From Bacteroidales bacterium (lineage in GTDB: Bacteria; Bacteroidota; Bacteroidia; Bacteroidales; JAOZVK01), in NCBI GenBank assembly GCA_029938185.1, contig JAOZVK010000002.1, positions 1 to 43,129 on the forward strand: DNA of 43,129 bases, given 5' to 3'. Within the stretch, counting starts at the first letter, position 1. Every line of letters begins with the position of its first letter. The notes below the pieces were generated by a model. The model worked only from the letters and a program-made list of their open reading frames with translations. It was not told where the DNA came from and ran no database searches. This document shows positions 18,615 through 38,993 of the stretch, piece by piece. Made by a program: the position numbers and the translations under genes.

Positions 18615-21164
18615 ATGGCAATTTCAACAATTTATACAACTATTTTATCTGAACTTCGACCAGTAATTTGGCATGGAAAGGCAGTATATAAACACTCAAC
18701 ACAATTAAAGTCATTTATTAGTAAAAATCTTGGTAATGAATACGGACACTTATTTGCCGAACCTTATATTTCCGATGATGCAGTAAATGGTACAGCTACT
18801 GCATATTGGGCATCGGAATACATTAGTTCAAAAGCAAAACCAATTACAGAACTTAGTAGTGAAGAGCAAAAAGTAATACAAGCAAAACTGTCATCTTATT
18901 TAAATAAAATAGAAAAACTATCAAACAAACTGTTGCAATCGGGTGATTTAAACAAAATTAAATGGGGTGAAATTATACAAGTTGTAATAGAAGTTCCTTC
19001 TTTTGAACATGTTTTTGTTGAAAATGGTAAAATTGTTTTAGTATGTTGGGGGTTTTCATCAGATAAAACTGAGTCAAACATGTTTCAATTAAAAAAAACA
19101 ATAACTGAAACTATTCCTGTTACCGATAAACCGGAAATCGAAAGCAATCAAATTGATAATAATGATTCAGACGATGAGGAAAAAGACAAAAATGATATAA
19201 CTGTTAATATTGAGAAAGATGATGACAAAGTTGACGAAAAAGACGAAGATAAAACTGAAAAAAAAGTTGAAAACAAAGAAGAAGACAAAGTTGAAGACAA
19301 AGTTGACGAAAAAAATAATGGTAATGGAAAAACTAATATTTTAAAAAAGTATTGGTGGTTGTGGACAATTATTGTAGTTATTGCAATATTCATTGTTTGT
19401 ATTTTGTTTTGCGTAGGAAGTAAACAAACTCATTTGCCAAAAAATGAAGGTGTAATTCCTCCAATCGACAGCTCAAAAATTGTTGTCAGTCCAGAAGGAC
19501 GAAAAGTCATTTCGAACCAACTAAATATTTGGTTATCTAATGATAGCTTATCAATTGATGATTTTGCTAAAGATTTTAAGAAAAAATATTCAAACAAAGA
19601 ATACAAAATTATTTATTATAATAAAAAACTCAAAAGAGTAAGAATAGAGTTTCCTGACAAAGATAAGAAAAAACTAACAGAGGCATTAGAAAAGCAATTT
19701 TCTAAATACAGAATAATTATTTTTGAAGAATCAATCTTAAATAATAATAGTGTTCCGAGCGACCCAGGATTTTCTGATAATAAGAAGAGTTGGGCATACG
19801 AAATGATAAAAGCATATGAAGCATGGGATATAAATAAAGGAAATCCAAGTATTATTGTTGCAATAATTGACGATGGTTTTGACTTAACTCATCCAGAACT
19901 TACAGGACGAATAGTAAAACCATACAATGTTCCTCTTAATAACTCAAGTCCAAATACAGGTATAGTTCGTATGACACATGGTACACATGTTTCGGGTACA
20001 GCAATTGGTAATATTTCTAATTCTCATGGTGTTGCAGGTATTGCTCCTAATTGTAGATATATGCCAGTTCAGGTTGGCGACCCAAATGGGAATATGAGTA
20101 CAACTGCAATTATTGATGCTGTATTATACTGTATTGCAAATAAGGCAAATGTTATAAATATGTCACTTGGTATGCCGGCTCCTAATGGTTTTTCAAAAAT
20201 GAAACAATCAACCCAAAAAGACTTTATCGAACACACGTATAAGGAAGAAGAAAAAATGTGGAACAAATTATTTGCAATTGCTGATAAAAATAATGTAACC
20301 ATTGTATTGGCTGGTGGAAACGATGATGTTTTAATTGGAATTGGACCTATGGGCAGAACACCTTATACAATAAATGTATCTGCCATTAATCCAGATATTA
20401 AAAAAGCTAATTTTAGTAATTATGGCGATTATTCCACAGTTAGTGCTCCAGGTGTAAAAATATACAGTTCAATTCCTTCAAATAAATATGATTTTTATGA
20501 TGGTACAAGTATGGCTGCACCAATAGTAACCGGTGCGGTAGCTTTACTTAAATCAGAAAACCCTGCATTAACCACTAATGAGATTAAAAAAATATTAAAA
20601 ATAACTGGTGTTAAAGTCAATGAACCAGATAAATATGTAGGTGAACTAATACAACTACATAAAGCTTTGATGTATGCAAAAGGAGAGTTACCAAACATAG
20701 TTGACTGTCCTAATATTCAGAAAAAAATTGATAGCTTACAAAGACAAATAGACGAACTAAAAGGTTTGTGTGATTCAACCAGTAATAAAAATGAAGAATT
20801 AGTGATACCTGATGCACCTAAAGACTTTAAATTTGCTGAAGGAAAATGGAAAAGTAGTAGTGATTTGATAAGTATTAGAACAAACAAACCAATTGAATTG
20901 TATTTTGATTTTTACAATAATGGAACAGGTAAATTAACACTACAAGAGTCTAATGGAAACTTATGCTATGCTGGTCTTGATTTAAGTGTAGATAAAAAAT
21001 TGTTAAGTATTATTCAAAAAGAAAATGCAAAATGTGTTAATGGTAAAGCTTACGATATTTATAAGTTTAAATGTGTTTCTACTGGACGTTCAGCTGCAAA
21101 ATGCAAAGCTAAGACAAAATCAGGTAGTACAATTGTTGAATTTACATTGAAAAGAGTTTATTGA
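18615..21164 (+). CDS. N-module, acidic linker, TM, subtilisin-like (S8) serine peptidase and a C-terminal Cys-containing module
   Basis: N-module motifs LFAEPYISDD..AYWASEY and IVLVCWGFSSD. TM segment YWWLWTIIVVIAIFIVCILFCVG is preceded by KK. S8 triad contexts are AIIDDGFDLTHPEL (Asp), HGTHVSGTA (His) and GTSMAAPIVTGAVALL (Ser). The C-terminal ~118 aa (20808-21161) is homologous to the C-terminus of the 29433 protein. Confidence 0.85.
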   Translation: MAISTIYTTILSELRPVIWHGKAVYKHSTQLKSFISKNLGNEYGHLFAEPYISDDAVNGTATAYWASEYISSKAKPITELSSEEQKVIQAKLSSYLNKIEKLSNKLLQSGDLNKIKWGEIIQVVIEVPSFEHVFVENGKIVLVCWGFSSDKTESNMFQLKKTITETIPVTDKPEIESNQIDNNDSDDEEKDKNDITVNIEKDDDKVDEKDEDKTEKKVENKEEDKVEDKVDEKNNGNGKTNILKKYWWLWTIIVVIAIFIVCILFCVGSKQTHLPKNEGVIPPIDSSKIVVSPEGRKVISNQLNIWLSNDSLSIDDFAKDFKKKYSNKEYKIIYYNKKLKRVRIEFPDKDKKKLTEALEKQFSKYRIIIFEESILNNNSVPSDPGFSDNKKSWAYEMIKAYEAWDINKGNPSIIVAIIDDGFDLTHPELTGRIVKPYNVPLNNSSPNTGIVRMTHGTHVSGTAIGNISNSHGVAGIAPNCRYMPVQVGDPNGNMSTTAIIDAVLYCIANKANVINMSLGMPAPNGFSKMKQSTQKDFIEHTYKEEEKMWNKLFAIADKNNVTIVLAGGNDDVLIGIGPMGRTPYTINVSAINPDIKKANFSNYGDYSTVSAPGVKIYSSIPSNKYDFYDGTSMAAPIVTGAVALLKSENPALTTNEIKKILKITGVKVNEPDKYVGELIQLHKALMYAKGELPNIVDCPNIQKKIDSLQRQIDELKGLCDSTSNKNEELVIPDAPKDFKFAEGKWKSSSDLISIRTNKPIELYFDFYNNGTGKLTLQESNGNLCYAGLDLSVDKKLLSIIQKENAKCVNGKAYDIYKFKCVSTGRSAAKCKAKTKSGSTIVEFTLKRVY

Positions 21165-23002
21165 TGAAAAATTTTGTAAAAGAAACAACAACACGAAACC
21201 TTAGACCTTTTAAAACTAATAATATACAGATAATGTATAGGTATAGTATATTTAAAAGTTTATTTAAAAAAAACAAAGCATATACTATTTTTGCTGAACC
21301 TGATTTTTCTTTTATTAATAAAAAAATAATTAAATGGTACAGTGAATTTAATTCAGAATCGGTTTCATATAATGATGTGAACGATGATGAAAAACTACGT
21401 ATTAATAAATTACTAAAAAACCAAGTTAAGTTGCTATATAACTATGCTTTATATATTCATGAAAATAGCACCGATAATGATAAGATATTTGAAACTCTTG
21501 ATAAAGCAATTGAAGTACCCGACTTATCTGATATTAATATATTAAAAGACAATAACAGAATTAAGATTGTATTGACAAGATGGGGAGCTATAAGTGATGA
21601 ATATAATGCTAAAAAAGGAATAATAAAAAATTTAGTACCTGTAAAAATTAAAGATATTACTTTTAATTTGAAATATAATGACGGTACTCCAGCATTAGAT
21701 AAAGAACTTTTTTTTAGATTGAATGAGCTTGTAACAAATTATAAGACAGATAACAATGGTAAAATTGTTTTATTTGATATACCATTTTGGCAAATTATAG
21801 AAGTTTGGCATAATAATGAAAATTTTGAAAAAGTTTTTAAAAACAAATATAAATGTAGTAGTAAAGATCAGTACACAATTATTATTCCTAAGGAAAAAAT
21901 ATTTTTTGATATGCGATTTATTATCCATAACGAAAGTAGTATTCCTGAAAAAAACAGAGAATTTAGTATTACAATAGACAATTCATCAAATAAATACAAG
22001 ACAAATAGCAATGGTGAATTTATTTTAAATAAAATTGAGGAAAAAAAGAAAGTATATTGTTCTGTAGATGATAATGGTAATATTCAAAAATTTGGTTTTC
22101 TTAATGATGGAAGGAGCTATTATATATTAAAACTAAAAACTAAAAAAGTTAAAGTAGAACCTATTAGTAAAGAAAAGCCCATTGAAGAGAAAGTAAAAAA
22201 AGAAGAAAAACCTATAAAAGAAACAGTTACTATTGTAACTCAACCAACTTATTCAACTGATACTGATAGGAAATTAAGAGTTATATATAATAACAATTCA
22301 GTTGTTAAAGGTGCTAAAGTTTTTTTTAGTAATTCATCTGATTATTTAAAAACGGATATTAATGGTGAACTACAGTTTCAATCTAATGAAAATAGTCTTA
22401 TTAATATAAAAATAAAAAAGAACTATAGAGTAACAAAAATTGATTTATTTATTACGAATCAAAAAGAGTATGTTATAAAAATAAATTCAAAAAAAAGAAT
22501 ACTACTATACTTGATACTATCATTAATACCACTATTGGCAATATTGTTTTATTTTATTTTATTTTCAAATGCAAAAGTTGAAAAGTATACTCATAAAGTA
22601 TTTATATCCGGCTGTATTGTTAGTGATAATTATGTAAGAGAAATATTTAGTGAAATCTTTGTTGATGATGAGTATAGTATAACAGTTAAAAAAGGAGTGT
22701 ATAATATTAATGATATTTTACCTGAAATTAAAAAAATCACTCTTGATGGTTTAGTAATTGGTATTAAAACAAGATTGATTTTATATTCAGATAAAAATGG
22801 ACATGGAAATATTTTAGTTGATACAGTTGGACCTTTAATTATCAATTGTAAAAGATGGAGGTATAATAAATTTTTTAATATCTCAAATTCAAAAAAATAT
22901 AAAAAAGAATTACAAAATATATTTCCATTGAAAAAAAGAATGTGGAGTACTGATACTTTAATGAAATATAATAATGGGTCGATAAAAGTTTTATATGAAT
23001 AA
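21164..23002 (+). CDS. N-module, beta-sandwich repeats, TM and a C-terminal domain shared with the 30384 protein (beta/gamma-crystallin-like motif)
   Basis: N-module motifs IFAEPDFSFINKKIIKWYSEF and IVLTRWGAISDE. TM segment ILLYLILSLIPLLAILFYFILF. The C-terminus LDGLVIGIKTRLILYSDKNGHGNILVDTVGPLIIN..NNGSIKVLYE aligns with the 30384 C-terminus. The ATG at 21164 overlaps the upstream TGA (tgatg); the track start at 21161 is a TTG. Confidence 0.75.
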   Translation: MKNFVKETTTRNLRPFKTNNIQIMYRYSIFKSLFKKNKAYTIFAEPDFSFINKKIIKWYSEFNSESVSYNDVNDDEKLRINKLLKNQVKLLYNYALYIHENSTDNDKIFETLDKAIEVPDLSDINILKDNNRIKIVLTRWGAISDEYNAKKGIIKNLVPVKIKDITFNLKYNDGTPALDKELFFRLNELVTNYKTDNNGKIVLFDIPFWQIIEVWHNNENFEKVFKNKYKCSSKDQYTIIIPKEKIFFDMRFIIHNESSIPEKNREFSITIDNSSNKYKTNSNGEFILNKIEEKKKVYCSVDDNGNIQKFGFLNDGRSYYILKLKTKKVKVEPISKEKPIEEKVKKEEKPIKETVTIVTQPTYSTDTDRKLRVIYNNNSVVKGAKVFFSNSSDYLKTDINGELQFQSNENSLINIKIKKNYRVTKIDLFITNQKEYVIKINSKKRILLYLILSLIPLLAILFYFILFSNAKVEKYTHKVFISGCIVSDNYVREIFSEIFVDDEYSITVKKGVYNINDILPEIKKITLDGLVIGIKTRLILYSDKNGHGNILVDTVGPLIINCKRWRYNKFFNISNSKKYKKELQNIFPLKKRMWSTDTLMKYNNGSIKVLYE

Positions 23003-23180: not shown

Positions 23181-23927
23181 ATGGAAAAAATATTAATAAG
23201 TGTTAAATTAGAAAATTTAGATAATAAACTAATAAAAATAAAAGTAAATCCAAACAAAAGAATTGATGAAGTTTTGGATTCAATAGTTGATAGCCCAAAG
23301 ATTGGACTGGCTAAACAAAACGAAGAAAATGTTCCTCTATATTATGGACTATGGTTTGGAAAAGAGAATGTTGCTATTGATGAGCAAAAATTTGAAGACG
23401 CAGGAATAGAGGAAGGTGATGTTTTAATTTTACGTGCAATCATAGGAGAAAACGAAGAAGATGAAAAAACTAAATTACCGTTTTTTAAGAAAATAAATAA
23501 AAAGCAAGCAGCAATTATTTCAGTTGTTTCGGTTTTGATTCTTACTATTTTAATACTTATTACAAATTGGAATAAGTTGTTTCCTGAAGTCAAAGAAGTC
23601 GTATATAATAAAAATGAGTTTGTTGCTCAATATATGGGGTATTTAGAAATAAATGGAACAAAAAAATTATTAAAACTTAATATTATTGAAGTTAGAGACG
23701 ACTGGGTAATTAAGTATGACTTGTATATTGATAAAAAACCGGAACTAAAAAACAAAAAAGCAAAAATAGAACCTTTAAATAATAAAATTATTTTCTTTGA
23801 AATGCCCGAAGACACTAAGGTTGAAAAACAAACAATAAGTAAATTAGACAATGCCAAATTTAGTAAGACAGATGTTGGCAAAATACAAATTTTATTAAAT
23901 AACAATTGTGAATTAATTCAATTATAA
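23181..23927 (+). CDS. Membrane protein with a possible YukD-like beta-grasp (Ubl-like) N-terminal domain, TM and C-terminal domain
   Basis: The N-terminus KILISVKLENLDNKLIKIKVNPNKRIDEVLDSIV...EQKFEDAGIEEGDVLILRAI has a beta-grasp-like ending (G-I-x-x-G-D-x-L-x-L). TM segment AAIISVVSVLILTILILITNW. The Ubl assignment is inference. Confidence 0.45.
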   Translation: MEKILISVKLENLDNKLIKIKVNPNKRIDEVLDSIVDSPKIGLAKQNEENVPLYYGLWFGKENVAIDEQKFEDAGIEEGDVLILRAIIGENEEDEKTKLPFFKKINKKQAAIISVVSVLILTILILITNWNKLFPEVKEVVYNKNEFVAQYMGYLEINGTKKLLKLNIIEVRDDWVIKYDLYIDKKPELKNKKAKIEPLNNKIIFFEMPEDTKVEKQTISKLDNAKFSKTDVGKIQILLNNNCELIQL

Positions 23928-23939
23928 AAATATTAAAAA

Positions 23940-24923
23940 ATGAAAAATAAACTTTTTTTATCTCTATTGATGACATTATTAGTATTTTCTGCATGCAAAG
24001 ACGAGAAATGTGCAGATATGAACCAAAAACTTGAATTGCAGCTTGAAGAATATGAAAAGAGAGAAAAATTTCTTAGCGAAGCAATGACTGACTATGACAA
24101 GAGTATTGATGAGTATAAATTGAAAAACGATACTCTGAAAATGTTTCAGGATTCTGTGAGGATTCTTACACAAAAAATGGACGAAAAAGGTTCTGCAAAT
24201 AGTGAAGAAACTAATGTATTAAAAAAATATATGACTAAGATTAGAACAATGTTATCCGAAAATAAGAAAATAGCTAAATATTTGAAAGAATATGTTGGTG
24301 ATAAAGACCTTGGTGCCAATCCAGCTTTAGCAGTAGAATTTTTAGCCAAAAACATTGAATCAAAAGAAGTTGAAATTAAAAGTATGCAAGATGAAATTGA
24401 ACGATTAAAAAATAGAATAAGTGGGCTTAACTATACAATTGTTACTATTAGTGCAGAAAAAGATGAGTTAACTGATGGGTTTGATTCTTTAAAAGTAGAA
24501 AATACTATTGTCAAAACTCAAGTCGCAAAATTATTAGCACGAAGTATTAAAACTCAGTTTTATGGTAAAAGTAATAAAAATATAACAAAAGCATTAATTC
24601 GTTTACATAAAAGAGCAAAATTTATTGAAATATGTTTTAATATAAACAAAAACGAATATGCAACTAAGGGTAATCATTCTTTTTATATATGTATTCAAAA
24701 AGGTAATAATATTCTTACAAATAACACATCGAATATTTTAAGAACACCTGATAATAAGGAATTTGGTTATACAATAAAACAAGATGTCAATTTTGATGGT
24801 AGTTTTACTAAAACATGTGCACGCTGGAATAAAGAAACCATAGAATTAACAAAAGGTAAGTACACAATTATTATATATAATAAAGATGGTGAAATTATAG
24901 GAAGAGATTATTTCAGTTTATAA
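23940..24923 (+). CDS. Lipoprotein with coiled-coil region and C-terminal beta-rich domain, function unknown
   Basis: SPII-type signal MKNKLFLSLLMTLLVFSAC (lipobox-like FSAC). Coiled-coil heptads follow (EIKSMQDEIERLKNRISGL..). Confidence 0.65.
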   Translation: MKNKLFLSLLMTLLVFSACKDEKCADMNQKLELQLEEYEKREKFLSEAMTDYDKSIDEYKLKNDTLKMFQDSVRILTQKMDEKGSANSEETNVLKKYMTKIRTMLSENKKIAKYLKEYVGDKDLGANPALAVEFLAKNIESKEVEIKSMQDEIERLKNRISGLNYTIVTISAEKDELTDGFDSLKVENTIVKTQVAKLLARSIKTQFYGKSNKNITKALIRLHKRAKFIEICFNINKNEYATKGNHSFYICIQKGNNILTNNTSNILRTPDNKEFGYTIKQDVNFDGSFTKTCARWNKETIELTKGKYTIIIYNKDGEIIGRDYFSL

Positions 24924-24944
24924 ATTAAAAAACCAAACTTGTAT

Positions 24945-25793: not shown

Positions 25794-25810
25794 TTTTATT
25801 AAGATATATT

Positions 25811-26884: not shown

Positions 26885-26899
26885 GTAAAAAAATAACAA

Positions 26900-27553
26900 A
26901 TGATAGACATAATTTTAGGAACAACTCTTTCATTAGCCAGCATGGGACATGCATTTGTACAAGACAAAAAACAAGATAAAATCAATAAAGAAATAATCAA
27001 AGAGTTGAAAGAACTGACGATTGTTGTTAAACAGCTATACGATAATGCAGTTGATAATGATGAATTTATCGAAATATCTATAGAAGACGAAATTCATATT
27101 CATATCGACGAAGATACTAAAAGAAGTGCAATTCCAAACTCCGACTCAATTATAATATATGATGACGATTCCGAGATTGATATTGAAGTTTTTAATGAAT
27201 TCCAGTTAGAAATTACAAAACTATATATATACATAAATATTATTAAAGCAGATGGAGTGATTGATAACAATGAAGTAATTTTTTTTAATAAATTGTTGGA
27301 AAAATCAAAATTAAACGAGAAAATCAAACAAGATATTTATAATGAATTACATAGTTCTAAAGAGTTTGATATTGAAATATCTCACTTACTTATATATCCA
27401 GAAACAATTATTAACAACATTATTACAAATGTTATAAATATTGCTGCTTGTGATGGCTATATTCATAAAAAAGAAAAAGAATTTATTTATGAACTTGCTA
27501 AAAAACTAAAAATTCCTAGAATAAGAATTGATGATATGTTAAGCATTGCTTAA
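26900..27553 (+). CDS. Protein with an acidic alternating-motif linker and a TerB-like C-terminal domain
   Basis: Two ADG-x4-E type repeats typical of the TerB fold: IIKADGVIDNNEVIFFNKLLEK and IAACDGYIHKKEKEFIYELAKKLKI. The preceding segment is IEISIEDEIHIHIDED...IIIYDDDSEIDIEVF. Confidence 0.55.
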   Translation: MIDIILGTTLSLASMGHAFVQDKKQDKINKEIIKELKELTIVVKQLYDNAVDNDEFIEISIEDEIHIHIDEDTKRSAIPNSDSIIIYDDDSEIDIEVFNEFQLEITKLYIYINIIKADGVIDNNEVIFFNKLLEKSKLNEKIKQDIYNELHSSKEFDIEISHLLIYPETIINNIITNVINIAACDGYIHKKEKEFIYELAKKLKIPRIRIDDMLSIA

Positions 27554-31622: not shown

Positions 31623-31672
31623 AATTTAGTAAAACAATATTAAATTTATCATTATATAATAATTTCTCATTT

Positions 31673-32935
31673 ATGAAAACAATAGAAAAAAAGTCTACAT
31701 CTTCAATAAGATTTATCGTTGGAGCAGTAAACGATTATGATATAAGATATCGTAATTTACAAAAATTCTTAAAAAAAGGTAATCTTTACACTCTTTTTGC
31801 TCAACCCCTAGTGTCGGGTAAACAAATTTTATGGCAAACTCCTTTGAAAGGAAAAATTACAAAGTACTCAAATTTATCACTGGATAAACAAAATATAGCT
31901 GATAGAATATTGGAAGAGCAGGCAGGTCAAATCATTGGTGCTATTTCTAACAGAATGAATACAAGTAAAATAAAACAATATTTAAGCATTCCGACCAAAA
32001 GTGATATTTATTTAGTACAAACAGATTTGGAAGATAAAGTTGTTATCACTCAATGGGGATGTGTTGCTGATGATGCTGATAAAATGCCTGTTACAATTAT
32101 CAAAGATGAAAATTTTCCTGTACCTGTTTTATTTATTGTTAAATATAAAAATGGAGAAATGGCTCCTAATGAAGATTTATTTATTGTATTTAATAATATG
32201 GCAAATAAAGAAAATTCAGGAACAGAAGCCAAAATTGACTTTGGAAAAGTTGTTAAACGCACACCAATACAAGTATATCAAATTGTTGAGAAAAAAAAAC
32301 AATTTTTTCACGACTTTATTGTTGATAGTCGAATTGAGTATTTTATAGAACTACCTCCTCTACAAACAATGCACTTTATGGTACAGGATACAAATGGAGA
32401 CACTAAATCTGATTATAGTTTTACTTTTGAATATGCTGGTAAAAAACTTACTCAAATATCAAACGAAAATGGATTTATTGATATTGAAGGGATTAAAGTA
32501 ACAACTTCTGTTAAAGCATATCATGAAAAATCTGAAAAAAAATTATATCCACACTCTTTTATTTGTGAGGAAGATAGAGATGTATATATTTTGTTAATAC
32601 CTGCACCTATCGTTAAGGAACCACCACCAATAATTATTGATGAACCAGAACCATATATTGAGCCAAAATCAAAACCAAAACCTAAGGAATTAAAAATTAA
32701 ACTTGTAACAAGACGTTTCTTTTTTCAAAAAAACAAACCCATAGCAAATCAAGAAATTGAATTTAAACATAAAGAAAAAGAATATAAACTGACGACTGAT
32801 GATGAAGGATATTGCACACTAATAATAGATGAAATAGAAAAAGACGAAATAATTGAAGCATTAGTAAATATTCCAAAAAAGAAAAAAGAAAAAAAATCAA
32901 AACCAAAATATTCAAAAGACAATGCAAATAATTAA
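31673..32935 (+). CDS. N-module, two beta-sandwich-like repeats, Pro/Lys-rich linker and a small C-terminal domain
   Basis: N-module motifs LFAQPLVSGKQILWQTPLKG and VVITQWGCVADD. The start is set at Met 31673 (MKTIEKKSTSSIRF) by homology with 37767 (MKIIEKKSTSSIRL); the 31601-31672 extension lies in a repeat element. The gene overlaps the next gene by 14 nt. Confidence 0.75.
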   Translation: MKTIEKKSTSSIRFIVGAVNDYDIRYRNLQKFLKKGNLYTLFAQPLVSGKQILWQTPLKGKITKYSNLSLDKQNIADRILEEQAGQIIGAISNRMNTSKIKQYLSIPTKSDIYLVQTDLEDKVVITQWGCVADDADKMPVTIIKDENFPVPVLFIVKYKNGEMAPNEDLFIVFNNMANKENSGTEAKIDFGKVVKRTPIQVYQIVEKKKQFFHDFIVDSRIEYFIELPPLQTMHFMVQDTNGDTKSDYSFTFEYAGKKLTQISNENGFIDIEGIKVTTSVKAYHEKSEKKLYPHSFICEEDRDVYILLIPAPIVKEPPPIIIDEPEPYIEPKSKPKPKELKIKLVTRRFFFQKNKPIANQEIEFKHKEKEYKLTTDDEGYCTLIIDEIEKDEIIEALVNIPKKKKEKKSKPKYSKDNANN

Positions 32936-35489
32936 AAATACAAAAACAGACTCAATTAGAACATTAGAAGGTAGTTTTAATGATTTTTCAATCAGATATG
33001 CACAATTAAAGTCAATACTTATAACTAACAAACTTGATATAATTTTTGCAGAACCTTCAATAGCAAATAATGTTATAGTATGGAAAACTGAGCTAAAAGG
33101 AAAAATAGTCAATTACACAAATTTATCGAAAGAAGAAAAAGAAAAAACTGATAAATTACTGGGAAGACAAGCAGCAATTATTAAACAGAGATTAATAAAT
33201 ATACCATATATATCAAAAAAAATTGATATATATCTGAATATACCTTCTGATGAGTCAAAATACTTAATTAGAACTGATAAAGGTGATAAGGTTATTCTTA
33301 TACAATGGGGATGTATTACAGATGATGCTGCTAAAAGTAGTACGAAAATATCAGTAGAAGGTGAATATCCTGTTCCTGTAATTTTTAAGACTATTTTTAA
33401 AGATAATACAATTGCTGCAAATGAAAAAATATATATAAATTATAATAAAAATGAATATGAAAAATTCACAAATAATCAAGGTATAATAAACTTTGGTAAT
33501 GCATATACTGGGAAAACACTATCAACATATCAGATAGTTGAAAATAAAAAATGTAATGAACAAAAATTTATTTGCGATGGTAGAGATGAGTATATTATCA
33601 AAATTCCTAAAAATCAAAATATGCTTTTCAAAGTCCAATATAAAAATGGAAAAATTGTAAGTTCAAAAGATTTTATTTTTGAATATTCGGGGAAAACAAA
33701 AAAAATAACTACAAATAATAAAGGTGAAATACAATTAAAAGATATTCGTCCGCATACAAAAGTAAATATTTTTATACTAAAAGATGGAAAAAAAGAAATA
33801 TTCAGTACAATTGTTTGTGAAGAAAATAGAAAAATATACAAACTATCATTACCCAATCCTATACAAATAAAGAAACAAAGTCCAAAGGTTGTAAGTATTA
33901 TGCAACCAGATGATATAATAGATAAACCAGATGAAATAATAGAAAAAACAGACGATAAAACAGATGATATAATAGAAAAAATAGATGAATACAATCCAGT
34001 TAAAGATGATGAATCTGAAAAAAAAGTAAGAAGAAAAAAAATACGTAAAAGGATATTAATTGCTGGTGGTGCAACTATTTCATTATCTGCAATAATTTAT
34101 GGTATAATGATATTTTTAGGAGTATTTGCTATTGTTACTTATACTGGTATGAAATTTAACGATAGTGTTTATGATAGTTTAAAAACTCAAAAAATGCTTT
34201 CTAAAGCATCTTATGTAACACTTGCCAAAAATTTTAGTTTAAAACCGTATTGTCCAACACCTAAGCAACAAGGACAGTATGGGACATGTGTAGGATGGTC
34301 ATCAAGCTACGCAGCTAGAACAATTGTAGAAGCTTACAAAAAGGGTTGGAAAAATCAAACAAATAAAATTAACGAAAATGCATTTTCTCCACTTTTTGTA
34401 TACGGCTTAATATATGTAGCTAAAGACAACTGTAGTGATGGAACCTCCATAAACCAAGCAATGAAAGTGCTAACTAAAATTGGAGATGTGAAATTAAAAG
34501 AATTCCCTAAAATGTGTGCATGTGAATCCGAAGTCCCTTTAAATTTAAAGAAAAAAGCAAGTGTAAATAAAATTGAACGTTATTCAAAACTATTTGATAG
34601 AAGAGATAAAAAGGATGTAAAAATAAAAACTGTTAAAAAAGCAATTTCTGTTGGAAACCCAGTTGTAATTGGAATGATGTGTTATAGTTCTTTTTCTAGT
34701 GCCAAAGGTGTATGGAATGGGGTACAAGATAGAAAACGAGGAGGTCATGCTATGTGTGTTGTAGGTTGGGATGATAATAAATATGGCGGAGCCTTTGAGA
34801 TAATGAATAGTTGGGGTACTGACTGGGGGAATAATGGCTTTATTTGGGTTAAATATTCTGATTTTGCAAAAAATGTAAAATATGCTTTTGAATTAAATGG
34901 AAGCAATATTCCTAAAGTTAAAGAAAATTATGAATTATCAGCTTTATTACAATTCAAGTTAATCTCAGGTAAGTTTATGAAAGCTAATTGTTTGATAAGT
35001 GCAAGGGCATCTAAATTAGTAAAAGTTTCGAAGAGTCATTACAGAATATTAAACTCTTATAAATCTGGAACTAAATACAGAATATATATTACCAACAAAC
35101 AAGCTGCCTATGTTTATGTAATTGGTTCTGATATAACTGGGACAATAAATAAATTATTTCCACCTGACAACAAAACAAGCCCATACATAAGTTATGCAAA
35201 TAGTACTATTTCACTGCCTGATGATAAATATTATATTGAACTTGATAATACCATAGGTACCGATTATATTGCTGTTTTCTACTCTAAAAGTGAGCTTGAT
35301 TTTAATACTTTACTTACAAAATTAAAAACAAAATCTGGTTCTTTTTCACAAAAAATAAATTCAGTTTTTGGAGCATATTTAGTTGAAGATATAAATATAA
35401 ATTATAAACAAGATAAAATATTTTTTGAGGCTACTTCAAAAAATAAAATTACAGTACCAATTATTATTGAGATGAAACATACACGTTAA
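32922..35489 (+). CDS. N-module, beta-sandwich repeats, acidic linker, TM, papain-like (C1) cysteine peptidase and a C-terminal DUF4384-like domain
   Basis: N-module motifs IFAEPSIANNVIVWKTELKG and VILIQWGCITDD. TM segment ILIAGGATISLSAIIYGIMIFLGVFAIV follows KKVRRKKIRKR. C1 contexts are QGQYGTCVGWSSSYA (Cys, tgt 34287-34289), GGHAMCVVGWDD (His, cat 34746-34748) and NSWGTDWGNNGFIWV. The tail YRIYITNKQAAYVYVIGSDITGTINKLFPP is DUF4384-like (tentative). Confidence 0.8.
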   Translation: MQIIKNTKTDSIRTLEGSFNDFSIRYAQLKSILITNKLDIIFAEPSIANNVIVWKTELKGKIVNYTNLSKEEKEKTDKLLGRQAAIIKQRLINIPYISKKIDIYLNIPSDESKYLIRTDKGDKVILIQWGCITDDAAKSSTKISVEGEYPVPVIFKTIFKDNTIAANEKIYINYNKNEYEKFTNNQGIINFGNAYTGKTLSTYQIVENKKCNEQKFICDGRDEYIIKIPKNQNMLFKVQYKNGKIVSSKDFIFEYSGKTKKITTNNKGEIQLKDIRPHTKVNIFILKDGKKEIFSTIVCEENRKIYKLSLPNPIQIKKQSPKVVSIMQPDDIIDKPDEIIEKTDDKTDDIIEKIDEYNPVKDDESEKKVRRKKIRKRILIAGGATISLSAIIYGIMIFLGVFAIVTYTGMKFNDSVYDSLKTQKMLSKASYVTLAKNFSLKPYCPTPKQQGQYGTCVGWSSSYAARTIVEAYKKGWKNQTNKINENAFSPLFVYGLIYVAKDNCSDGTSINQAMKVLTKIGDVKLKEFPKMCACESEVPLNLKKKASVNKIERYSKLFDRRDKKDVKIKTVKKAISVGNPVVIGMMCYSSFSSAKGVWNGVQDRKRGGHAMCVVGWDDNKYGGAFEIMNSWGTDWGNNGFIWVKYSDFAKNVKYAFELNGSNIPKVKENYELSALLQFKLISGKFMKANCLISARASKLVKVSKSHYRILNSYKSGTKYRIYITNKQAAYVYVIGSDITGTINKLFPPDNKTSPYISYANSTISLPDDKYYIELDNTIGTDYIAVFYSKSELDFNTLLTKLKTKSGSFSQKINSVFGAYLVEDININYKQDKIFFEATSKNKITVPIIIEMKHTR

Positions 35490-35504: not shown

Positions 35505-37457
35505 ATGAGCACACATAAACGAAAAATAAAATACAGTCCTGATAGTCATGAGCATTTAATTAAAATTAAAAAAAGATGTAAACCATGTTGGCTTTTACTT
35601 TTACTTTTGTTACTTCCTCTTATTTTACTTATTCCACTGGAAAAGGATGTGAAATTTAAAGTATTAAATTCTTATGACAAATCTGTTGTAAGTAATTTAA
35701 ATGTAAGCTTTGAGTATTTAAAGCGTGATTTTTATAATTTTAAAACAAATAAATTTATTACACCTGAATATCGCTATCGCAAAACTGCTTATAATTCTGA
35801 TACTACTGATGAAAAAGGTTTTGCTATCATAAAAAAAATAGAATATACTGTTTATCACTGGATATTTCGTAATAATGATACTACAAGAACATATGCAACA
35901 AGCAATTGTTACAAGCTTGATACAATTATTGATTTATTTGAACTTGAAGATGGAGATACTCTATATACAAATCCTATTTTACTTGACTTCGAATTTACGG
36001 TAGTTGATGCTGATGATAACAATGAACCATTAGGGGGAGCTTTAGTTACAATAAAATCGGACATGTTTGGTCTAAAAGACTCTACACGTTCTGTAAGTGC
36101 AGGAAAAGTTTTATTTAAACAATTTCCTAAATGTTCTAATATTGAAGTTGTAGGTTCTAAATACGGCTGGTTCAATGATACGATAAAAGGCAATGCTGGA
36201 AATATTTATCAAAAAGATGATACTTTATTCTTAAAACAAGAAAAAACAATTGTGAAATTTTTTGTTCAGGACTTGTATACCAAAAAACCATTAGTTAAAG
36301 CTTATGGTCAATTGTTTTTTAGAGATAAACCAAATGAACAAGTAGGAGATGCTTTTACTAACATTAATGGTGTAGCAAAAGGGGTTATTGATGATATTCA
36401 TATAGTTAAATATATACGTATTGATGTAAATAAAACTAATAAACTGATTTTTTATAATGATACATCAACTGTTGATTATTTAAATTGGATAAAAGTTGAA
36501 GATTGGAATAAACGAACAGATTCTGCAAAAGTAATTTTTTTAAGACCTAATCCAAAACCTATTTTATTTCAGGATATTAATTGTAAAACTAAAGCAGGTA
36601 TTTCAGGTGTTGAAAATTTAGTCACTATTGTTAAATCTAATGGGGAAATAGTAGGACCTACTCCAATAACAAGTGACTCTGATGGAAACTTTAGTATTTC
36701 AGCAGGTCCTGGAGATAATATTACAATAGAGGCAAAAATCAATAGTGCGTGTCCAAATGAATATTTACCAAACAGTACAACAATAGTAAATGCACCATTT
36801 GAAGATTTAAAAAATGATGCCAGTAAAAGAAAAATTCTTTTATGTAAAGTTGATGCCAAAAAATTAGAATTTAAGAATACTGATGCAGGCACAGGGTCTC
36901 CGCTTTCTGGAGTCACCAATACTGTAAATGTACAAGGTGGAGGTACTTATACATACACAAGCATAGCTGATGGTACTTTTGTAGTAACAGATGTATATGA
37001 ATGTCAAATAATATCAATAACTGCATCTAAATCTGGATATGAAACAAATAATACTACTGTTGTAAACAAAAAATTTGATGTTTTAAGAGTTAATCCAGCA
37101 GATAGAATTATTCCATTAAAAAAGATAGTTTCGCCACCACCACCACCGCCACCGCCACCGCCAGTAAAAGGATGTGAAAGTATTGGAAGTGGAGGAGAAG
37201 GAAAAACAAAAACAGCCCATGATTTAGAAGGTTGTGAAACTTTTACAATTACTTGGGATATGCGCTCCATACCTGATGAAATGATTATTTATTGTGGAAA
37301 GGGTCCTTTTAAACGAAAATTATGGAAAACAAGTGGAGCTGTAAGTGGAAAAGGCTCAAGAACTTTGCGTTGTTCAAGAAAGTTTATTACAGTTGTTATA
37401 ATAGGTAGACAATCAGGAACTTCATGGAATTATGATTTAAAATGTGATTGTAATTGA
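35505..37457 (+). CDS. Single-pass membrane partner protein (IKIKK-CxxC-polyLeu N-terminus), several beta-sandwich repeats, a Pro10 linker and a Cys-rich C-terminal domain
   Basis: N-terminus EHLIKIKKRCKPCWLLLLLLLLPLILL. The central region is homologous to the 38994 protein (e.g. FKQFPKCSNIEVVGSKYGWFNDTI versus FKNVPNCSEIEVIGKKYGWKNDSI). PPPPPPPPPP is encoded at 37134-37163. The C-terminal ~95 aa has 6 or more Cys. Confidence 0.75.
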   Translation: MSTHKRKIKYSPDSHEHLIKIKKRCKPCWLLLLLLLLPLILLIPLEKDVKFKVLNSYDKSVVSNLNVSFEYLKRDFYNFKTNKFITPEYRYRKTAYNSDTTDEKGFAIIKKIEYTVYHWIFRNNDTTRTYATSNCYKLDTIIDLFELEDGDTLYTNPILLDFEFTVVDADDNNEPLGGALVTIKSDMFGLKDSTRSVSAGKVLFKQFPKCSNIEVVGSKYGWFNDTIKGNAGNIYQKDDTLFLKQEKTIVKFFVQDLYTKKPLVKAYGQLFFRDKPNEQVGDAFTNINGVAKGVIDDIHIVKYIRIDVNKTNKLIFYNDTSTVDYLNWIKVEDWNKRTDSAKVIFLRPNPKPILFQDINCKTKAGISGVENLVTIVKSNGEIVGPTPITSDSDGNFSISAGPGDNITIEAKINSACPNEYLPNSTTIVNAPFEDLKNDASKRKILLCKVDAKKLEFKNTDAGTGSPLSGVTNTVNVQGGGTYTYTSIADGTFVVTDVYECQIISITASKSGYETNNTTVVNKKFDVLRVNPADRIIPLKKIVSPPPPPPPPPPVKGCESIGSGGEGKTKTAHDLEGCETFTITWDMRSIPDEMIIYCGKGPFKRKLWKTSGAVSGKGSRTLRCSRKFITVVIIGRQSGTSWNYDLKCDCN

Positions 37458-37489
37458 TAACTTTACATATAGAATTTGAAGTGTAGAAT

Positions 37490-37766: not shown

Positions 37767-38993
37767 ATGAAAATAATAGAAAAAAAGTCTACATCTTCAA
37801 TAAGATTAATCGTTGGAACAATAAACGATTATGATATAAGGTATCGTAATTTACAAAAATTCTTAAAAAAAGGTAATCTTTACACTCTTTTTGCTCAACC
37901 CCTAGTGTCGGGTAAACAAATTTTATGGCAAACTCCTTTGAAAGGAAAAATTACAAAGTACTCAAATTTATCACTGGATAAACAAAATATAGCTGATAGA
38001 ATATTGGAAGAGCAGGCAGGTCAAATCATTGGTGCTATTTCTAACAGAATGAATACAAGTAAAATAAAACAATATTTAAGCATTCCGACCAAAAGTGATA
38101 TTTATTTAGTACAAACAGATTTGGAAGATAAAGTTGTTATCACTCAATGGGGATGTGTTGCTGATGATGCTGATAAAATGCCTGTTACAATTATCAAAGA
38201 TGAAAATTTTCCTGTACCTGTTTTATTTATTGTTAAATATAAAAATGGAGAAATGGCTCCTAATGAAGATTTATTTATTGTATTTAATAATATGGCAAAT
38301 AAAGAAAATTCAGGAACAGAAGCCAAAATTGACTTTGGAAAAGTTGTTAAACGCACACCAATACAAGTATATCAAATTGTTGAGAAAAAAAAACAATTTT
38401 TTCACGACTTTATTGTTGATAGTCGAATTGAGTATTTTATAGAACTACCTCCTCTACAAACAATGCACTTTATGGTACAGGATACAAATGGAGACACTAA
38501 ATCTGATTATAGTTTTACTTTTGAATATACTGGTAAAAAACTTACTCAAATATCAAATGAAAATGGATTTATTGATATTGAAGGGGTTAAAGTAACAACT
38601 TCTGTTCAGGCATATCATGAAGAATTTGGAAAAAAATTATATCCTCATTCTTTTATTTGTGAGGAAGATAGAGATGTATATATTTTGTTAATACCTGTAC
38701 CTATCATTAAGAAGCCTCCTGTAATAATTGATGATGAGCCAGTACCGGATATTAAGCCTGAACAAAAACCCAAACAAATAAAAATAAAAATAATTGATCA
38801 TAAGAAAAAAATTGTCAAAAATAAAGAGCTAAAAATAATTTTCAGAGAAAAAGAATATGAATTAATAACAGATGAAAGTGGTTATTGCAGTCTTGAAGTA
38901 AAAGAAATTGAAGAAGGCGAAAAATTAGAAGTCATTATTAAAACTGATAAAAAAGAGAGAATTAGAAAATTGAAATATATAAAACAAAAATAA
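37767..38993 (+). CDS. N-module plus two beta-sandwich-like repeats; near-identical paralog of 31673 over its first ~255 aa, with a divergent C-terminus
   Basis: DNA is identical to the 31673 gene from ~37842 to 38528 (offset 6094 nt). It diverges after FEYTGKK. The stop abuts the next start (38994). Confidence 0.8.
   Translation: MKIIEKKSTSSIRLIVGTINDYDIRYRNLQKFLKKGNLYTLFAQPLVSGKQILWQTPLKGKITKYSNLSLDKQNIADRILEEQAGQIIGAISNRMNTSKIKQYLSIPTKSDIYLVQTDLEDKVVITQWGCVADDADKMPVTIIKDENFPVPVLFIVKYKNGEMAPNEDLFIVFNNMANKENSGTEAKIDFGKVVKRTPIQVYQIVEKKKQFFHDFIVDSRIEYFIELPPLQTMHFMVQDTNGDTKSDYSFTFEYTGKKLTQISNENGFIDIEGVKVTTSVQAYHEEFGKKLYPHSFICEEDRDVYILLIPVPIIKKPPVIIDDEPVPDIKPEQKPKQIKIKIIDHKKKIVKNKELKIIFREKEYELITDESGYCSLEVKEIEEGEKLEVIIKTDKKERIRKLKYIKQK

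What the first reader, a model, noticed from the sequence alone, without database searches (positions are those of the whole stretch)
18615..38993. Seven paralogs share a novel ~150-aa cytoplasmic N-terminal module fused to different outputs (effector-adaptor-like architecture)
Seen in sequence: the genes at 18615, 21164, 27772, 29433, 31673, 32922 and 37767 all begin with the same module. It has (F/I)FAEP-x6-8-(I/A)-x-W-x-(T/S), then ~60 variable residues, then I-P-x3-D-I-Y and (I/V)-(I/V)-L-(T/I)-(Q/R)-W-G-x-x-x-D.

Downstream of the module they carry different outputs:
- TM plus subtilisin S8.
- TM plus papain-like C1 peptidase plus a DUF4384-like domain.
- Transglutaminase-like Cys peptidase plus coiled coil.
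- TM plus a crystallin-like domain.
- Beta-sandwich repeats only.

Established knowledge: in NTPase-centred bacterial conflict systems, shared N-terminal 'effector-associated' adaptor domains that recruit alternative effectors have been proposed from comparative genomics.

Inference: this module docks alternative effectors to a common core (the SrfB/C-like NTPases or the E2/RING machinery), or it is the substrate of Ubl conjugation. I do not recognise the module as any named domain.
Basis: partly seen in the sequence, partly recalled or inferred. Interest (0 to 1): 0.85.

Follow-up and report, generated by a model that had tools for sequence, protein, structure and literature searches.

The report
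SrfA N-domain on seven paralogs
The shared 150-residue module is real, but it is the N-terminal domain of the already named SrfA protein family, here copied onto seven proteins with different business ends beside the SrfB and SrfC NTPases, which makes this an unusually expanded srfABC locus and not a new kind of domain.

Summary
Observation confirmed. Exactly seven ORFs in the window (starts 18615, 21164, 27772, 29433, 31673, 32922, 37767) begin with one homologous module of about 145-160 aa. An HMM built without any window sequence scores all seven at E 1e-24 to 3e-34.

The module is not unnamed. It is the N-terminal domain of the SrfA family (NCBIfam NF040486), and the neighbouring genes are SrfB (PF07520, 1e-213) and SrfC (PF10139, 2e-139). 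The locus is therefore an expanded srfABC system.

- Family size: 568 representative clusters carry the module, always at the N-terminus.
- Usual layout: the module is followed by one TM helix with the N-terminus inside the cell.
- Variable partners: beta-sandwich repeats, S8 peptidase, vWA, FGE-sulfatase and TerB.
- Linkage: in 15 of 17 well-covered SrfB+SrfC loci a module gene lies close to the pair, under 100 bp away in 11 of them, and 10 loci have two or more.
- The E1/E2/RING/JAB genes recur only in the closest Bacteroidales relatives.

Two AlphaFold models (pLDDT 88 and 95) resemble only protein-kinase-like folds, below significance, and the kinase catalytic motifs are absent.

Best reading: a cytoplasmic pseudokinase-like adaptor that couples interchangeable outputs to SrfB/SrfC. 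This is a new variant of a known system, of moderate interest.

The parts
18615..21164 (+). SrfA paralog 1 (849 aa). N-module aa 4-163 (nt 18624-19103), acidic/Lys-rich linker, TM aa 249-267, S8 peptidase aa 413-665, SrfA C-terminal domain aa 727-848. In effect a full-length SrfA with an S8 domain inserted on the outer side of the membrane.
   Evidence: NF040486 SrfA_fam E 4.7e-36 over aa 12-276. PF00082 1.9e-44. TM. C-terminus 49% identical to 29433 aa 188-309. Orthologues directly after SrfC in L001, L002, L005, L009, L010, L012, L013. The D/H/N/S catalytic motifs (IIDDG, HGTH, GGND, GTSMA) are readable in the sequence.
21164..23002 (+). SrfA-N paralog 2 (612 aa). N-module aa 1-158 (nt 21164-21637), beta-sandwich region, TM aa 446-464, C-terminal domain of about 145 aa shared with the 30384 protein.
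   Evidence: HMM E 6e-41. Weak CarbopepD_reg_2 match. TM. C-terminus 32% identical to the 30384 C-terminus. No Pfam support for 'crystallin'.
27772..29286 (+). SrfA-N paralog 3 (504 aa). N-module aa 1-144 (nt 27772-28203), transglutaminase-like Cys-peptidase domain (aa 262-343), C-terminal coiled coil. No TM, so predicted to be cytoplasmic.
   Evidence: HMM E 3.4e-38. PF04473 DUF553 5.5e-7. No TM.
29433..30365 (+). SrfA-N paralog 4 (310 aa). N-module aa 1-144 (nt 29433-29864), charged linker, SrfA C-terminal domain (aa 159-296). No TM.
   Evidence: HMM E 2.3e-39. NF040486 profile positions 287-426, E 7.7e-20. Orthologue P0001.
31673..32935 (+). SrfA-N paralog 5 (420 aa). N-module aa 1-144 (nt 31673-32104) plus beta-sandwich repeats. 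No TM.
   Evidence: HMM E 6e-43. 83% identical to the 37767 protein. 38% identical to 32922 over aa 1-308.
32922..35489 (+). SrfA-N paralog 6 (855 aa). N-module aa 1-144 (nt 32922-33353), beta-sandwich repeats, TM aa 386-404 preceded by KKVRRKKIRKR, papain-like C1 peptidase, DUF4384.
   Evidence: HMM E 2.7e-41. PF00112 4e-11 and PF14326 5e-11. TM. AF2 model of the module with pLDDT 94.8. The Q/C/H/N motifs (QGQYGTC, GGHAM, NSWG) are readable in the sequence.
37767..38993 (+). SrfA-N paralog 7 (408 aa). N-module aa 1-144 (nt 37767-38198) plus beta-sandwich repeats. No TM. A recent duplicate of 31673.
   Evidence: HMM E 6.5e-43. DNA repeat 31632-31931 / 37726-38025 at 97%. Protein 83% identical.
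11382..14426 (+). SrfB. A large ATPase-like protein with actin/Hsp70-type phosphate-1, phosphate-2 and adenosine motifs (DIGNSRTCG, DIGGGTTD, LAGRPT). Proposed core partner of the module.
   Evidence: PF07520 1e-213. The motif residues are invariant in 28 homologues. Only a weak FtsA match at the DIGGGTTD motif, E 0.069.
14665..15642 (+). Conserved coiled-coil protein of about 325 aa, encoded between srfB and srfC in Bacteroidota-type loci.
   Evidence: phmmer hits in the same position in L001 and L005-L014 (1e-8 to 1e-95) and in L019. No family match.
15715..18543 (+). SrfC. A P-loop NTPase (Walker A GQSQVGKS) with weak GTPase-like P-loop matches. Proposed core partner of the module.
   Evidence: PF10139 1.8e-139. 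MMR_HSR1 0.003 and GBP 0.014 at the P-loop.
30384..31529 (+). Membrane partner protein: short N-terminal tail, TM aa 24-42, beta-rich ectodomain. Follows the TM-less paralog 29433.
   Evidence: TM. C-terminus homologous to the 21164 C-terminus.
35505..37457 (+). Membrane partner protein: tail, TM aa 27-45, CarboxypepD_reg beta-sandwiches, Cys-rich C-terminus.
   Evidence: PF13620 2.5e-9. TM. In Runella plasmid L002 a homologue is fused behind a 31673/37767-like N-module protein, a Rosetta-stone link.
38994..40376 (+). Membrane partner protein, a paralog of 35505. Directly follows the TM-less paralog 37767.
   Evidence: 40% identical to 35505. TM aa 32-50.
1548..10102 (+). Ubiquitin-like conjugation block: E1 (1548-2765), Ubl (2783-3067), E2 (3375-4046), TM protein (4095-4820), TM-JAB (5041-7644), vWA-RING-TM protein (7739-10102). 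An accessory to the Srf core found only in this clade.
   Evidence: ThiF 7.7e-51, UQ_con 1.5e-5, JAB 1.7e-8, VWA 1.2e-6, Prok-RING_1 0.0029. YukD 4.6e-4. Same block in L005/L006. Homologues of these window proteins were not detected in any other SrfB locus.
23181..27553 (+). Second accessory block: Ubl-like+TM (23181-23927), coiled-coil lipoprotein-like protein (23940-24923), JAB (24939-25793), tandem 2xUbl fusion (25811-26884), TerB (26900-27553).
   Evidence: JAB 7.9e-6 and TerB 1.1e-5. Tandem DNA repeat 25791-26306. Sub-threshold Ubl matches.

Best explanation
The module is the cytoplasmic N-terminal domain of SrfA, the third component of srfABC systems.

It is a compact alpha/beta domain of about 150 aa whose predicted fold is closest to a truncated protein-kinase-like (PKL) fold. 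It lacks the kinase catalytic residues, so it most likely works as a pseudokinase-type binding or regulatory module and not as an enzyme.

Proposed mechanism:
1. Each paralog uses the same N-domain to engage the SrfB (actin/Hsp70-like ATPase) and SrfC (P-loop NTPase) pair on the cytoplasmic face of the inner membrane.
2. One NTPase engine is thereby coupled to a set of interchangeable outputs.
3. In three paralogs the output lies across a single TM helix on the outside (S8 peptidase, C1 peptidase+DUF4384, and a beta-rich domain).
4. In the four TM-less paralogs the output is cytoplasmic (a transglutaminase-like peptidase) or is probably supplied by the TM protein encoded next door.
5. The E1/E2/RING/JAB/Ubl genes are an accessory regulatory layer found so far only in this Bacteroidales clade.

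Shown: homology of the seven copies, identity with SrfA-N, N-terminal position, predicted N-in topology, variable outputs, and tight linkage to srfB/srfC.

Inferred: direct docking of the N-domain on SrfB/SrfC, the pseudokinase nature, and control of the outputs by the NTPases.
For: **Identity with SrfA-N**
- NF040486 hits.
- 34 of 72 distant homologues match SrfA_fam, best 1e-53.
- The custom HMM hits the PGAP-annotated SrfA family protein at E 1.5e-15.

**Family**
- 568 representative clusters, with the module always at residues 1 to about 165.
- 104 of 150 have exactly one TM after the module.
- Positive-inside rule 79 against 16, and no signal peptides.

**Variable outputs across the family**
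- CarboxypepD_reg 64, Peptidase_S8 14, several vWA types, FGE-sulfatase, and a TerB-type fusion in Klebsiella.

**Linkage**
- 15 of 17 well-covered SrfB+SrfC loci carry a module gene, under 100 bp from the pair in 11 and 0.8-1.6 kb away in the other four. 10 of 17 carry two or more.
- The loci span Bacteroidota, Alpha- and Gammaproteobacteria.
- Homologues of the window's Ub-system proteins were detected only in L005/L006.

**Physical complex**
- SrfA co-immunoprecipitates with SrfB and with SrfC, and the three co-migrate on native PAGE (PMC6950479).

**Fold**
- Two independent AF2 models, pLDDT 88.4 and 94.8.
- The PDB top hits are almost exclusively PKL folds: Bud32 at E 0.01, ROCK, PI4KII, APH(2''), IRE1, TYK2 JH2.
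- The conserved residues are two invariant Trp plus Pro and Gly, not HRD or DFG Asp.

**Rosetta-stone fusion**
- A TM-less paralog type is fused to the neighbouring TM partner type in Runella.
Against: - No experiment or multimer model here shows that the N-domain itself, as opposed to another part of SrfA, contacts SrfB or SrfC.
- The PKL similarity is below significance (best E 0.01, TM-score at most 0.44), and there is no sequence-level hit to any solved structure.
- Two well-covered SrfB+SrfC loci lack the module (L008 and L034).
- Four of the seven paralogs have no TM. In 29433 the SrfA C-domain would be cytoplasmic, whereas it lies after the TM in 18615. No single topology model fits every copy.
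- Published work treats SrfABC as a secreted toxin or effector, which fits poorly with a cell-internal machine.
- NCBIfam scores are below the curated cut-off (125 against 150 bits).
Confidence: 0.6

Rival explanations
1. The N-domains mainly bind each other. They would oligomerise homotypically, as many pseudokinases do, and assemble the seven paralogs into one mixed multi-effector complex. SrfB/SrfC would then act on that assembly without each paralog docking individually.
For: Two or more copies per locus in 10 of 17 loci. Every copy keeps the same invariant surface residues. EAD-type adaptors are proposed to work through homotypic contacts (PMC7159879).
Against: Several loci have a single module gene (L011, L012, L025, L029), so the domain must work without paralogs. 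SrfA co-immunoprecipitates with SrfB and with SrfC.
Confidence: 0.15
2. The module is an active, highly divergent kinase-like enzyme (kinase, AMPylase or glutamylase type) that modifies SrfB/SrfC or a target. It would not be an adaptor.
For: The nearest folds are all PKL, including the minimal kinase Bud32. Conserved charged positions R/K15 (86%), E49 (64%), E126 (70%) and D150 (63%) could form an atypical site. A 2026 bioRxiv preprint on PKL discovery mentions SrfA 41 times, but its text could not be read.
Against: Only about 150 aa. No Gly-rich loop. The DFG position is an invariant Trp. There is no HRD-like Asp, and the best-conserved residues are Trp, Pro and Gly. The same preprint uses the word 'pseudokinase' 7 times.
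Confidence: 0.12
3. The module is the substrate or recognition tag of the Ubl conjugation system. The E1/E2/RING enzymes would ubiquitin-tag the seven paralogs on this domain to switch them on or to destroy them.
For: E1, E2, vWA-RING, two JABs and three Ubl genes sit in the same co-directional locus. The arrangement is conserved in L005/L006.
Against: The module family is widespread. It was found in 18 other SrfB loci in which no homologue of the window's Ub-system proteins was detected, so its primary role cannot depend on Ubl conjugation. Nothing here tests modification.
Confidence: 0.08
4. The module is an N-terminal trafficking or secretion domain, as in polymorphic toxins or type III effectors, that exports the variable C-terminal toxin domains. 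This is the 'SrfABC toxin' view.
For: The layout of constant N-terminus and variable C-terminus resembles polymorphic toxins. The literature reports cytotoxicity of SrfABC (PMC6950479).
Against: No secretion-system family was found among the window ORFs scanned. Most family members are single-pass membrane proteins with an N-in topology. The domain is a well-folded 150-aa unit with no signal peptide. SrfB homologues are common in free-living Bacteroidota.
Confidence: 0.05

Closest known systems
SrfA of the srfABC operon (NCBIfam NF040486 'SrfA family protein'; Salmonella, Xenorhabdus, Klebsiella plasmids)
   Same: The N-terminal domain is homologous. The genes sit in one co-directional cluster with SrfB (PF07520) and SrfC (PF10139). 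18615 also keeps the TM and the SrfA C-terminal domain. SrfA/B/C form a complex (PMC6950479).
   Different: Canonical loci show one or two SrfA-type genes upstream of srfB. Here seven copies lie downstream of srfC. Five have lost the SrfA C-domain and carry other outputs (C1 peptidase+DUF4384, transglutaminase-like, beta-sandwich arrays). 18615 has an S8 peptidase inserted. No copy reaches the NCBIfam cut-off. An Ubl conjugation system is embedded in the locus.
Effector-associated domains (EADs) of NTPase-centred conflict systems (Kaur et al. 2020, PMC7159879)
   Same: A small constant N-terminal domain is fused to alternative effector domains, peptidases among them, in operons built around NTPases and vWA proteins. 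Some of those systems also carry a complete E1/E2/RING/JAB Ubl pathway.
   Different: EADs are defined by a second copy on the core component and are thought to act through homotypic contacts. Here no core protein carries the module. The NTPases are SrfB/SrfC, not MoxR, FtsH or GAP1. The fold is alpha/beta and PKL-like, not one of the described EADs.
Protein-kinase-like superfamily, minimal kinases and pseudokinases (Bud32, KSR1, TYK2 JH2, PAN3)
   Same: For two independent models the top PDB fold matches are almost all PKL, and kinases predominate among the named BFVD hits. My reading of the model's secondary-structure order is beta-hairpin, helix, beta-strands, two helices, beta-hairpin, then a 'WG' where kinases have 'DFG'.
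   Different: About 150 aa, or roughly half a kinase domain. No significant E-value or TM-score. No Gly-loop, HRD or DFG aspartates. Nucleotide binding was not tested.
Prokaryotic E1-E2-RING-JAB-Ubl systems with membrane-bound vWA/RING proteins (Pfam Prok-RING_1; Burroughs et al. 2011, as cited in PMC7159879)
   Same: The window's upstream block has ThiF E1, UQ_con E2, JAB, a vWA+Prok-RING_1 TM protein and Ubl genes.
   Different: This concerns the neighbourhood, not the module. I found no paper in the searchable library that links this Ubl system to SrfB/SrfC/SrfA.

Membership tests
SrfA family (NCBIfam NF040486) | N-terminal region homologous to the N-terminal part of the SrfA model | tested here: met
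   18615 aa 12-276 aligns to profile positions 10-253 at E 4.7e-36. 21164, 31673 and 37767 score E ~1e-3. 34 of 72 distant module homologues hit the model. The module HMM hits PGAP 'SrfA family protein' WP_023288354.1 at E 1.5e-15.
SrfA family (NCBIfam NF040486) | Whole-protein score above the curated cut-off (150 bits) | tested here: not met
   Best is 125.1 bits (18615). 29433 scores 71.7 bits and the others 19 bits or less. They are divergent or mosaic relatives, not equivalogs.
SrfA family (NCBIfam NF040486) | Canonical architecture: N-domain, linker, one TM, SrfA C-terminal domain | tested here: inconclusive
   18615 has all the parts plus an inserted S8. 29433 has the N- and C-domains but no TM. 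The other five lack the C-domain.
SrfA family (NCBIfam NF040486) | Encoded in one gene cluster with srfB and srfC | tested here: met
   SrfB PF07520 1e-213 and SrfC PF10139 1.8e-139 lie directly upstream. The same linkage holds in 15 of 17 well-covered loci.
Effector-associated domains (EADs; PMC7159879) | The same domain is present on both a core component and the effector proteins (homotypic coupling) | tested here: not met
   The six-frame HMM scan finds the module only on the seven paralogs. It is absent from SrfB, SrfC, the vWA-RING protein, E1, E2, the JABs and the Ubls. Definition read.
Effector-associated domains (EADs; PMC7159879) | N-terminal non-enzymatic domain fused to diverse effector domains within one system | tested here: met
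   S8, C1+DUF4384, DUF553 and beta-sandwich outputs in the window. S8, vWA, FGE-sulfatase and beta-sandwich outputs across the family.
Protein-kinase-like (PKL) superfamily | Significant structural similarity to the bilobal kinase fold | tested here: inconclusive
   The top 50 PDB hits for two models are almost all PKL, but the best E is 0.01, probability 0.77 and TM-score at most 0.44. The best BFVD hit has E 0.022.
Protein-kinase-like (PKL) superfamily | Catalytic signature: Gly-rich loop, beta3 Lys with alphaC Glu, HRD Asp, DFG Asp | tested here: not met
   Conserved positions are W65, W145, P50, P128, G146, A48 and F47. The DFG-equivalent is xWG. There is no conserved catalytic Asp and no Gly-loop. 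Only R/K15 (86%) could stand in for the beta3 Lys.
Protein-kinase-like (PKL) superfamily | Nucleotide binding | not testable with these tools
   Needs thermal shift, ITC or a structure with ligand.
Polymorphic toxin / secreted effector N-terminal trafficking domains | Linked secretion apparatus, or a signal or secretion motif at the N-terminus | tested here: not met
   No secretion-system family among the window ORFs scanned. No signal-like N-terminus in 150 family members, and the predicted topology is N-in.

The most novel reading that the evidence does not exclude
srfABC loci are not toxins. They are envelope-spanning, NTPase-driven conflict or stress systems. A minimal pseudokinase domain (SrfA-N) serves as the universal coupling module that lets one SrfB/SrfC engine control an exchangeable battery of periplasmic and cytoplasmic effectors (peptidases, vWA, FGE-type and beta-sandwich sensors). 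In one Bacteroidales clade the battery has grown to seven members and has come under the control of a complete E1-E2-RING-JAB ubiquitin-like pathway.
Probability: 0.3. Interest if true: 0.8.

Novelty: new variant of a known kind. Interest (0 to 1): 0.55.

Why it matters
SrfA, SrfB and SrfC are widespread. I found at least 1,972 SrfB clusters, and the names are more than 20 years old. In the literature I could search there is still no accepted biochemical role beyond 'virulence factor' or 'toxin'.

Three points reframe the system:
- SrfA is modular: a conserved cytoplasmic kinase-like N-domain plus swappable, mostly extracytoplasmic outputs.
- These genes form arrays next to the two NTPases.
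- The picture that follows is an inside-out signalling or effector-deployment machine at the membrane.

This gives concrete experiments: domain-level binding tests, protease activation and topology mapping.

The Bacteroidales variant also offers a bacterial case in which a full ubiquitin-like conjugation pathway is genetically tied to a defined set of seven candidate clients. That would make the targets of a prokaryotic E1-E2-RING system testable.

The finding does not reveal a new domain family, so its value lies in interpretation and system architecture.

Tried and rejected
- **Word-indexed protein search.** The module profile found one hit and the 18615 N-terminus found none. That index is too insensitive for this family. 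The exhaustive HMMER search then found 568 clusters.
- **The search for related loci.**
  - With SrfB alone on genome contigs it gave one locus.
  - With the vWA-RING protein on metagenomes it gave none.
- **Solved structures.** Sequence searches for the module, SrfB and SrfC found nothing meaningful.
- **Defence-system library.** PADLOC has no model for SrfA, SrfB or SrfC. SrfB is absent from phage genomes.
- **Literature.** Searches linking SrfB to ubiquitin, RING, TerB or defence found nothing relevant.
- **The 2026 preprint.** bioRxiv 10.64898/2026.09.18.752743 discusses SrfA as protein-kinase-like, to judge from its title and word counts. It could not be opened by any form of its id. I therefore cite only its title, the start of its abstract and term counts.
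- **Rejected: chance or low-complexity similarity.** The HMM built without window sequences rules this out.
- **Rejected: a hidden eighth copy**.
- **Rejected: the EAD class.** There is no copy on a core protein.
- **Rejected: 'crystallin-like' for the 21164 C-terminus as a database-supported call**.

Full report
**1. The window and the observation**

The window has about 27% G+C, and all its large ORFs lie on the + strand.

All 21 pairwise BLASTP comparisons of the N-termini align. E ranges from 1e-121 to 0.066, and the weakest pairs involve 18615. An HMM built only from 26 homologues from other organisms scores the seven window modules at E(Z=1e6) 1e-24 to 3e-34. A six-frame HMM scan of the window finds exactly these seven ORFs.

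This supports the starts at 27772 and 31673 over the longer ORFs. The genes at 31673 and 37767 are a recent duplication: the proteins are 83% identical, with the first ~255 residues all but three identical. The written motifs are a slightly idealised form of the true family signature.

**2. What the module is**

Pfam has no model for it. NCBIfam NF040486, 'SrfA family protein', matches 18615 over aa 12-276 (profile positions 10-253) at E 4.7e-36. It matches three other modules weakly. It also matches the C-terminus of 29433 (profile positions 287-426) at E 7.7e-20.

The C-terminus of 18615 is 49% identical to that of 29433. So 18615 is a complete SrfA (N-domain, linker, TM, C-domain) with an S8 peptidase inserted after the TM. 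The two genes upstream are SrfB (PF07520, 1e-213) and SrfC (PF10139, 1.8e-139).

An exhaustive HMMER search of 1.84 billion representative proteins with the module profile finds 568 clusters at E of 1e-3 or better, and 155 at 1e-10 or better. The module always occupies residues 1 to about 165. Of 72 of the more distant hits, 34 match SrfA_fam, the best at 1e-53.

On a Klebsiella plasmid my module HMM hits the PGAP-annotated 'SrfA family protein' directly upstream of SrfB (E 1.5e-15). It also hits the preceding 'tellurite resistance domain protein' (E 3.6e-7). The 'novel' module is therefore the N-terminal domain of SrfA.

**3. Architecture and topology**

- In the window only 18615, 21164 and 32922 have a TM helix.
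- Family-wide, 104 of the best 150 representatives have exactly one TM after the module.
- None has a signal-like N-terminus. In 79 of 104 the N-terminal flank of the TM carries more K/R than the C-terminal flank, with means of 3.3 and 1.7. The module is therefore predicted to be cytoplasmic and the C-terminal outputs external.
- Partner domains among the 150 representatives are:
  - CarboxypepD_reg-type beta-sandwiches (64) and related Ig-like repeats;
  - Peptidase_S8 (14);
  - several vWA types;
  - FGE-sulfatase and InlB-type repeats.
- The C1+DUF4384 and DUF553 combinations are unique to the window.
- The catalytic motifs of the S8 domain (D, H, N, S) and the C1 domain (Q, C, H, N) can be read in the sequence, so both look active.
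- The C-terminal domain of 21164 has no Pfam match, so 'crystallin-like' is unverified. It is shared with the 30384 protein.

**4. Genomic linkage**

I collected 34 SrfB-centred loci:
- one genome MAG;
- three plasmids;
- ten contigs found through SrfB homologues;
- twenty metagenome contigs.

Seventeen of these have both SrfB and SrfC with at least 2.5 kb on either side. Of those 17, 15 carry at least one module gene, under 100 bp from the pair in 11 and 0.8-1.6 kb away in the other four. Ten carry two or more. In the proteobacterial type the module gene sits upstream of srfB. In the Bacteroidota type it usually sits downstream of srfC, and an SrfA-S8 fusion usually comes first (L001, L002, L005, L009, L010, L012, L013).

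The highest copy number elsewhere was four, in L009. Seven is the largest array seen.

On a Runella plasmid a 31673/37767-like protein is fused to a 35505/38994-like TM protein. This ties the window's TM-less paralogs to the TM proteins encoded beside them.

Homologues of the window's E1, E2, JAB and vWA-RING proteins occur only in L005/L006, which share one SrfB sequence that is 73% identical to the window's. There the whole layout is conserved. The module thus follows SrfB/SrfC, not the ubiquitin-like machinery.

**5. Fold**

AlphaFold2 models were built with about 30 diverse homologues: 18615 aa 1-163 (pLDDT 88.4, pTM 0.82) and 32922 aa 1-147 (pLDDT 94.8, pTM 0.88). Both give the same alpha/beta domain.

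Foldseek finds no significant match. However, for both models the top PDB hits are almost exclusively protein-kinase-like folds: Bud32 at E 0.01 and probability 0.77, then ROCK, PI4KII, APH(2''), IRE1 with TM-score 0.44, TYK2 JH2, KSR1 and PAN3.

The best-conserved residues are two invariant tryptophans plus Pro and Gly. The position that I align with 'DFG' reads 'xWG', and there is no Gly-rich loop and no HRD aspartate. I therefore read the domain as a truncated, probably non-catalytic PKL-like fold. This is a lead and not a demonstrated membership.

A bioRxiv preprint of September 2026 on systematic PKL discovery mentions SrfA 41 times, SrfABC 12 times and 'pseudokinase' 7 times. It mentions 'subtilisin' and 'ubiquitin' zero times. 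Its text could not be opened.

**6. Mechanism**

Published native PAGE and co-immunoprecipitation show that Xenorhabdus SrfA, SrfB and SrfC bind each other (PMC6950479).

SrfB carries the invariant DxGNSRTCG, DIGGGTTD and LAGRPT motifs typical of actin/Hsp70-type ATPases (with a weak FtsA match). SrfC has a Walker A motif with weak GTPase-family matches.

The most economical model is that SrfA-N is the cytoplasmic handle through which each paralog engages the SrfB/SrfC pair. One NTPase engine would then serve several outputs: two external peptidases, one cytoplasmic transglutaminase-like peptidase, and beta-rich external domains, some supplied in trans. The docking step and any control of the outputs are inferred.

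Context hints are compatible with a stress or conflict role but do not prove it:
- BREX next to the Runella locus;
- a PIN toxin-antitoxin pair inserted in L005;
- an integrase in L011;
- TerB and vWA partners.

**7. Comparison with known systems and novelty**

The module belongs to the SrfA family at the domain level, but the seven proteins are below the NCBIfam cut-off and five have non-canonical outputs.

It works like an effector-associated adaptor but fails the defining EAD test, because there is no copy on a core protein.

NTPase+vWA systems with peptidase effectors and a complete E1/E2/RING/JAB pathway have been described (PMC7159879), but not with SrfB/SrfC. I found no paper linking SrfB to ubiquitin-like genes.

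The finding is therefore a new variant of a known system: an srfABC locus with a seven-fold, output-diversified SrfA array and an embedded Ubl pathway. It is not a new domain.

**8. Verdict**

The adaptor logic and the SrfB/C partnership hold. 'Unnamed novel module', E2/RING docking and the Ubl-substrate idea do not.
- Interest is 0.55. It stays above ordinary because the modular, array-forming, kinase-like nature of SrfA and the Ubl link are, as far as I could find, undescribed and experimentally tractable.

Noticed in passing
window 2783-3067, 25811-26884 and 23181-23927: There are three Ubl-type genes. The first is a 94-aa Ubl ending ...KIIAG|YLVV. The second has two tandem copies of the same Ubl (DNA repeat 25791-26048 / 26049-26306, 89%) followed by ...KIIAG|KPII and a C-terminal domain of about 190 aa, which looks like a polyubiquitin-style precursor. 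The third has an N-terminal Ubl-like domain (..AIIG) followed by a TM helix. The Pfam matches (YukD, ubiquitin, Rad60-SLD) are all sub-threshold.
   Followed up: partly
window 4095-4820 versus 5041-7644: The 241-aa TM protein is 68% identical over 184 aa to the N-terminal external part of the 867-aa TM-JAB protein. It looks like a duplicated sensor-like ectodomain without the JAB. The 5041 JAB domain is 45% identical to the stand-alone JAB at 24939.
   Followed up: no
L002 (Runella sp. SP2 plasmid NZ_CP031031.1) 35903-39208: A 1101-aa protein fuses an N-module+beta-sandwich part, like the window's 31673/37767, to a TM+beta-sandwich part, like the window's 35505/38994. This Rosetta-stone fusion links gene pairs that are separate in the window. 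The srfB-srfC-srfA(S8) cluster on this plasmid lies directly after a BREX system.
   Followed up: partly
L008 (ena:ERZ27256703 k141_832724) 17389 onward: A called gene of 17,169 aa follows srfC directly in a Bacteroidales contig. No SrfA N-module was detectable within the 10 kb held.
   Followed up: no
L005/L006 16910-17631; L011 75-1277: A small-ORF+PIN toxin-antitoxin-like pair is inserted between srfC and srfA-S8 in the closest relatives of the window. A phage-type integrase lies at the edge of the Polaribacter srf island. Both suggest mobility or an island context.
   Followed up: no
window 26900-27553; L003 (Klebsiella plasmid) 7172-8284: A TerB-domain protein is encoded among the paralogs. 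In Klebsiella a 'tellurite resistance domain protein' carries the SrfA N-module itself. Three family representatives fuse the module to a vWA-TerF-like domain. This is a recurring Ter-system connection.
   Followed up: partly
window 29433-30365 versus 18615-21164: The SrfA C-terminal domain lies after the TM helix in 18615, so it is predicted to be external. In 29433 the same domain (49% identical) is joined to the N-module by a charged linker with no TM, so it is predicted to be cytoplasmic. No explanation was found for this topology mismatch.
   Followed up: no
window 14665-15642 and the same position in L001, L005-L014 and L019: A coiled-coil protein of about 250-340 aa with no family assignment is conserved between srfB and srfC in Bacteroidota-type loci (phmmer 1e-8 to 1e-95). 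It may be a fourth core component.
   Followed up: partly
L007 (logan:ERR14790927_123737) 9359-21461: An SrfB 50% identical to the window's occurs with no srfC and no module gene. It is flanked by a zinc-ribbon protein, the 330-aa conserved protein, a rhomboid protease and a 2058-aa alpha-2-macroglobulin.
   Followed up: no
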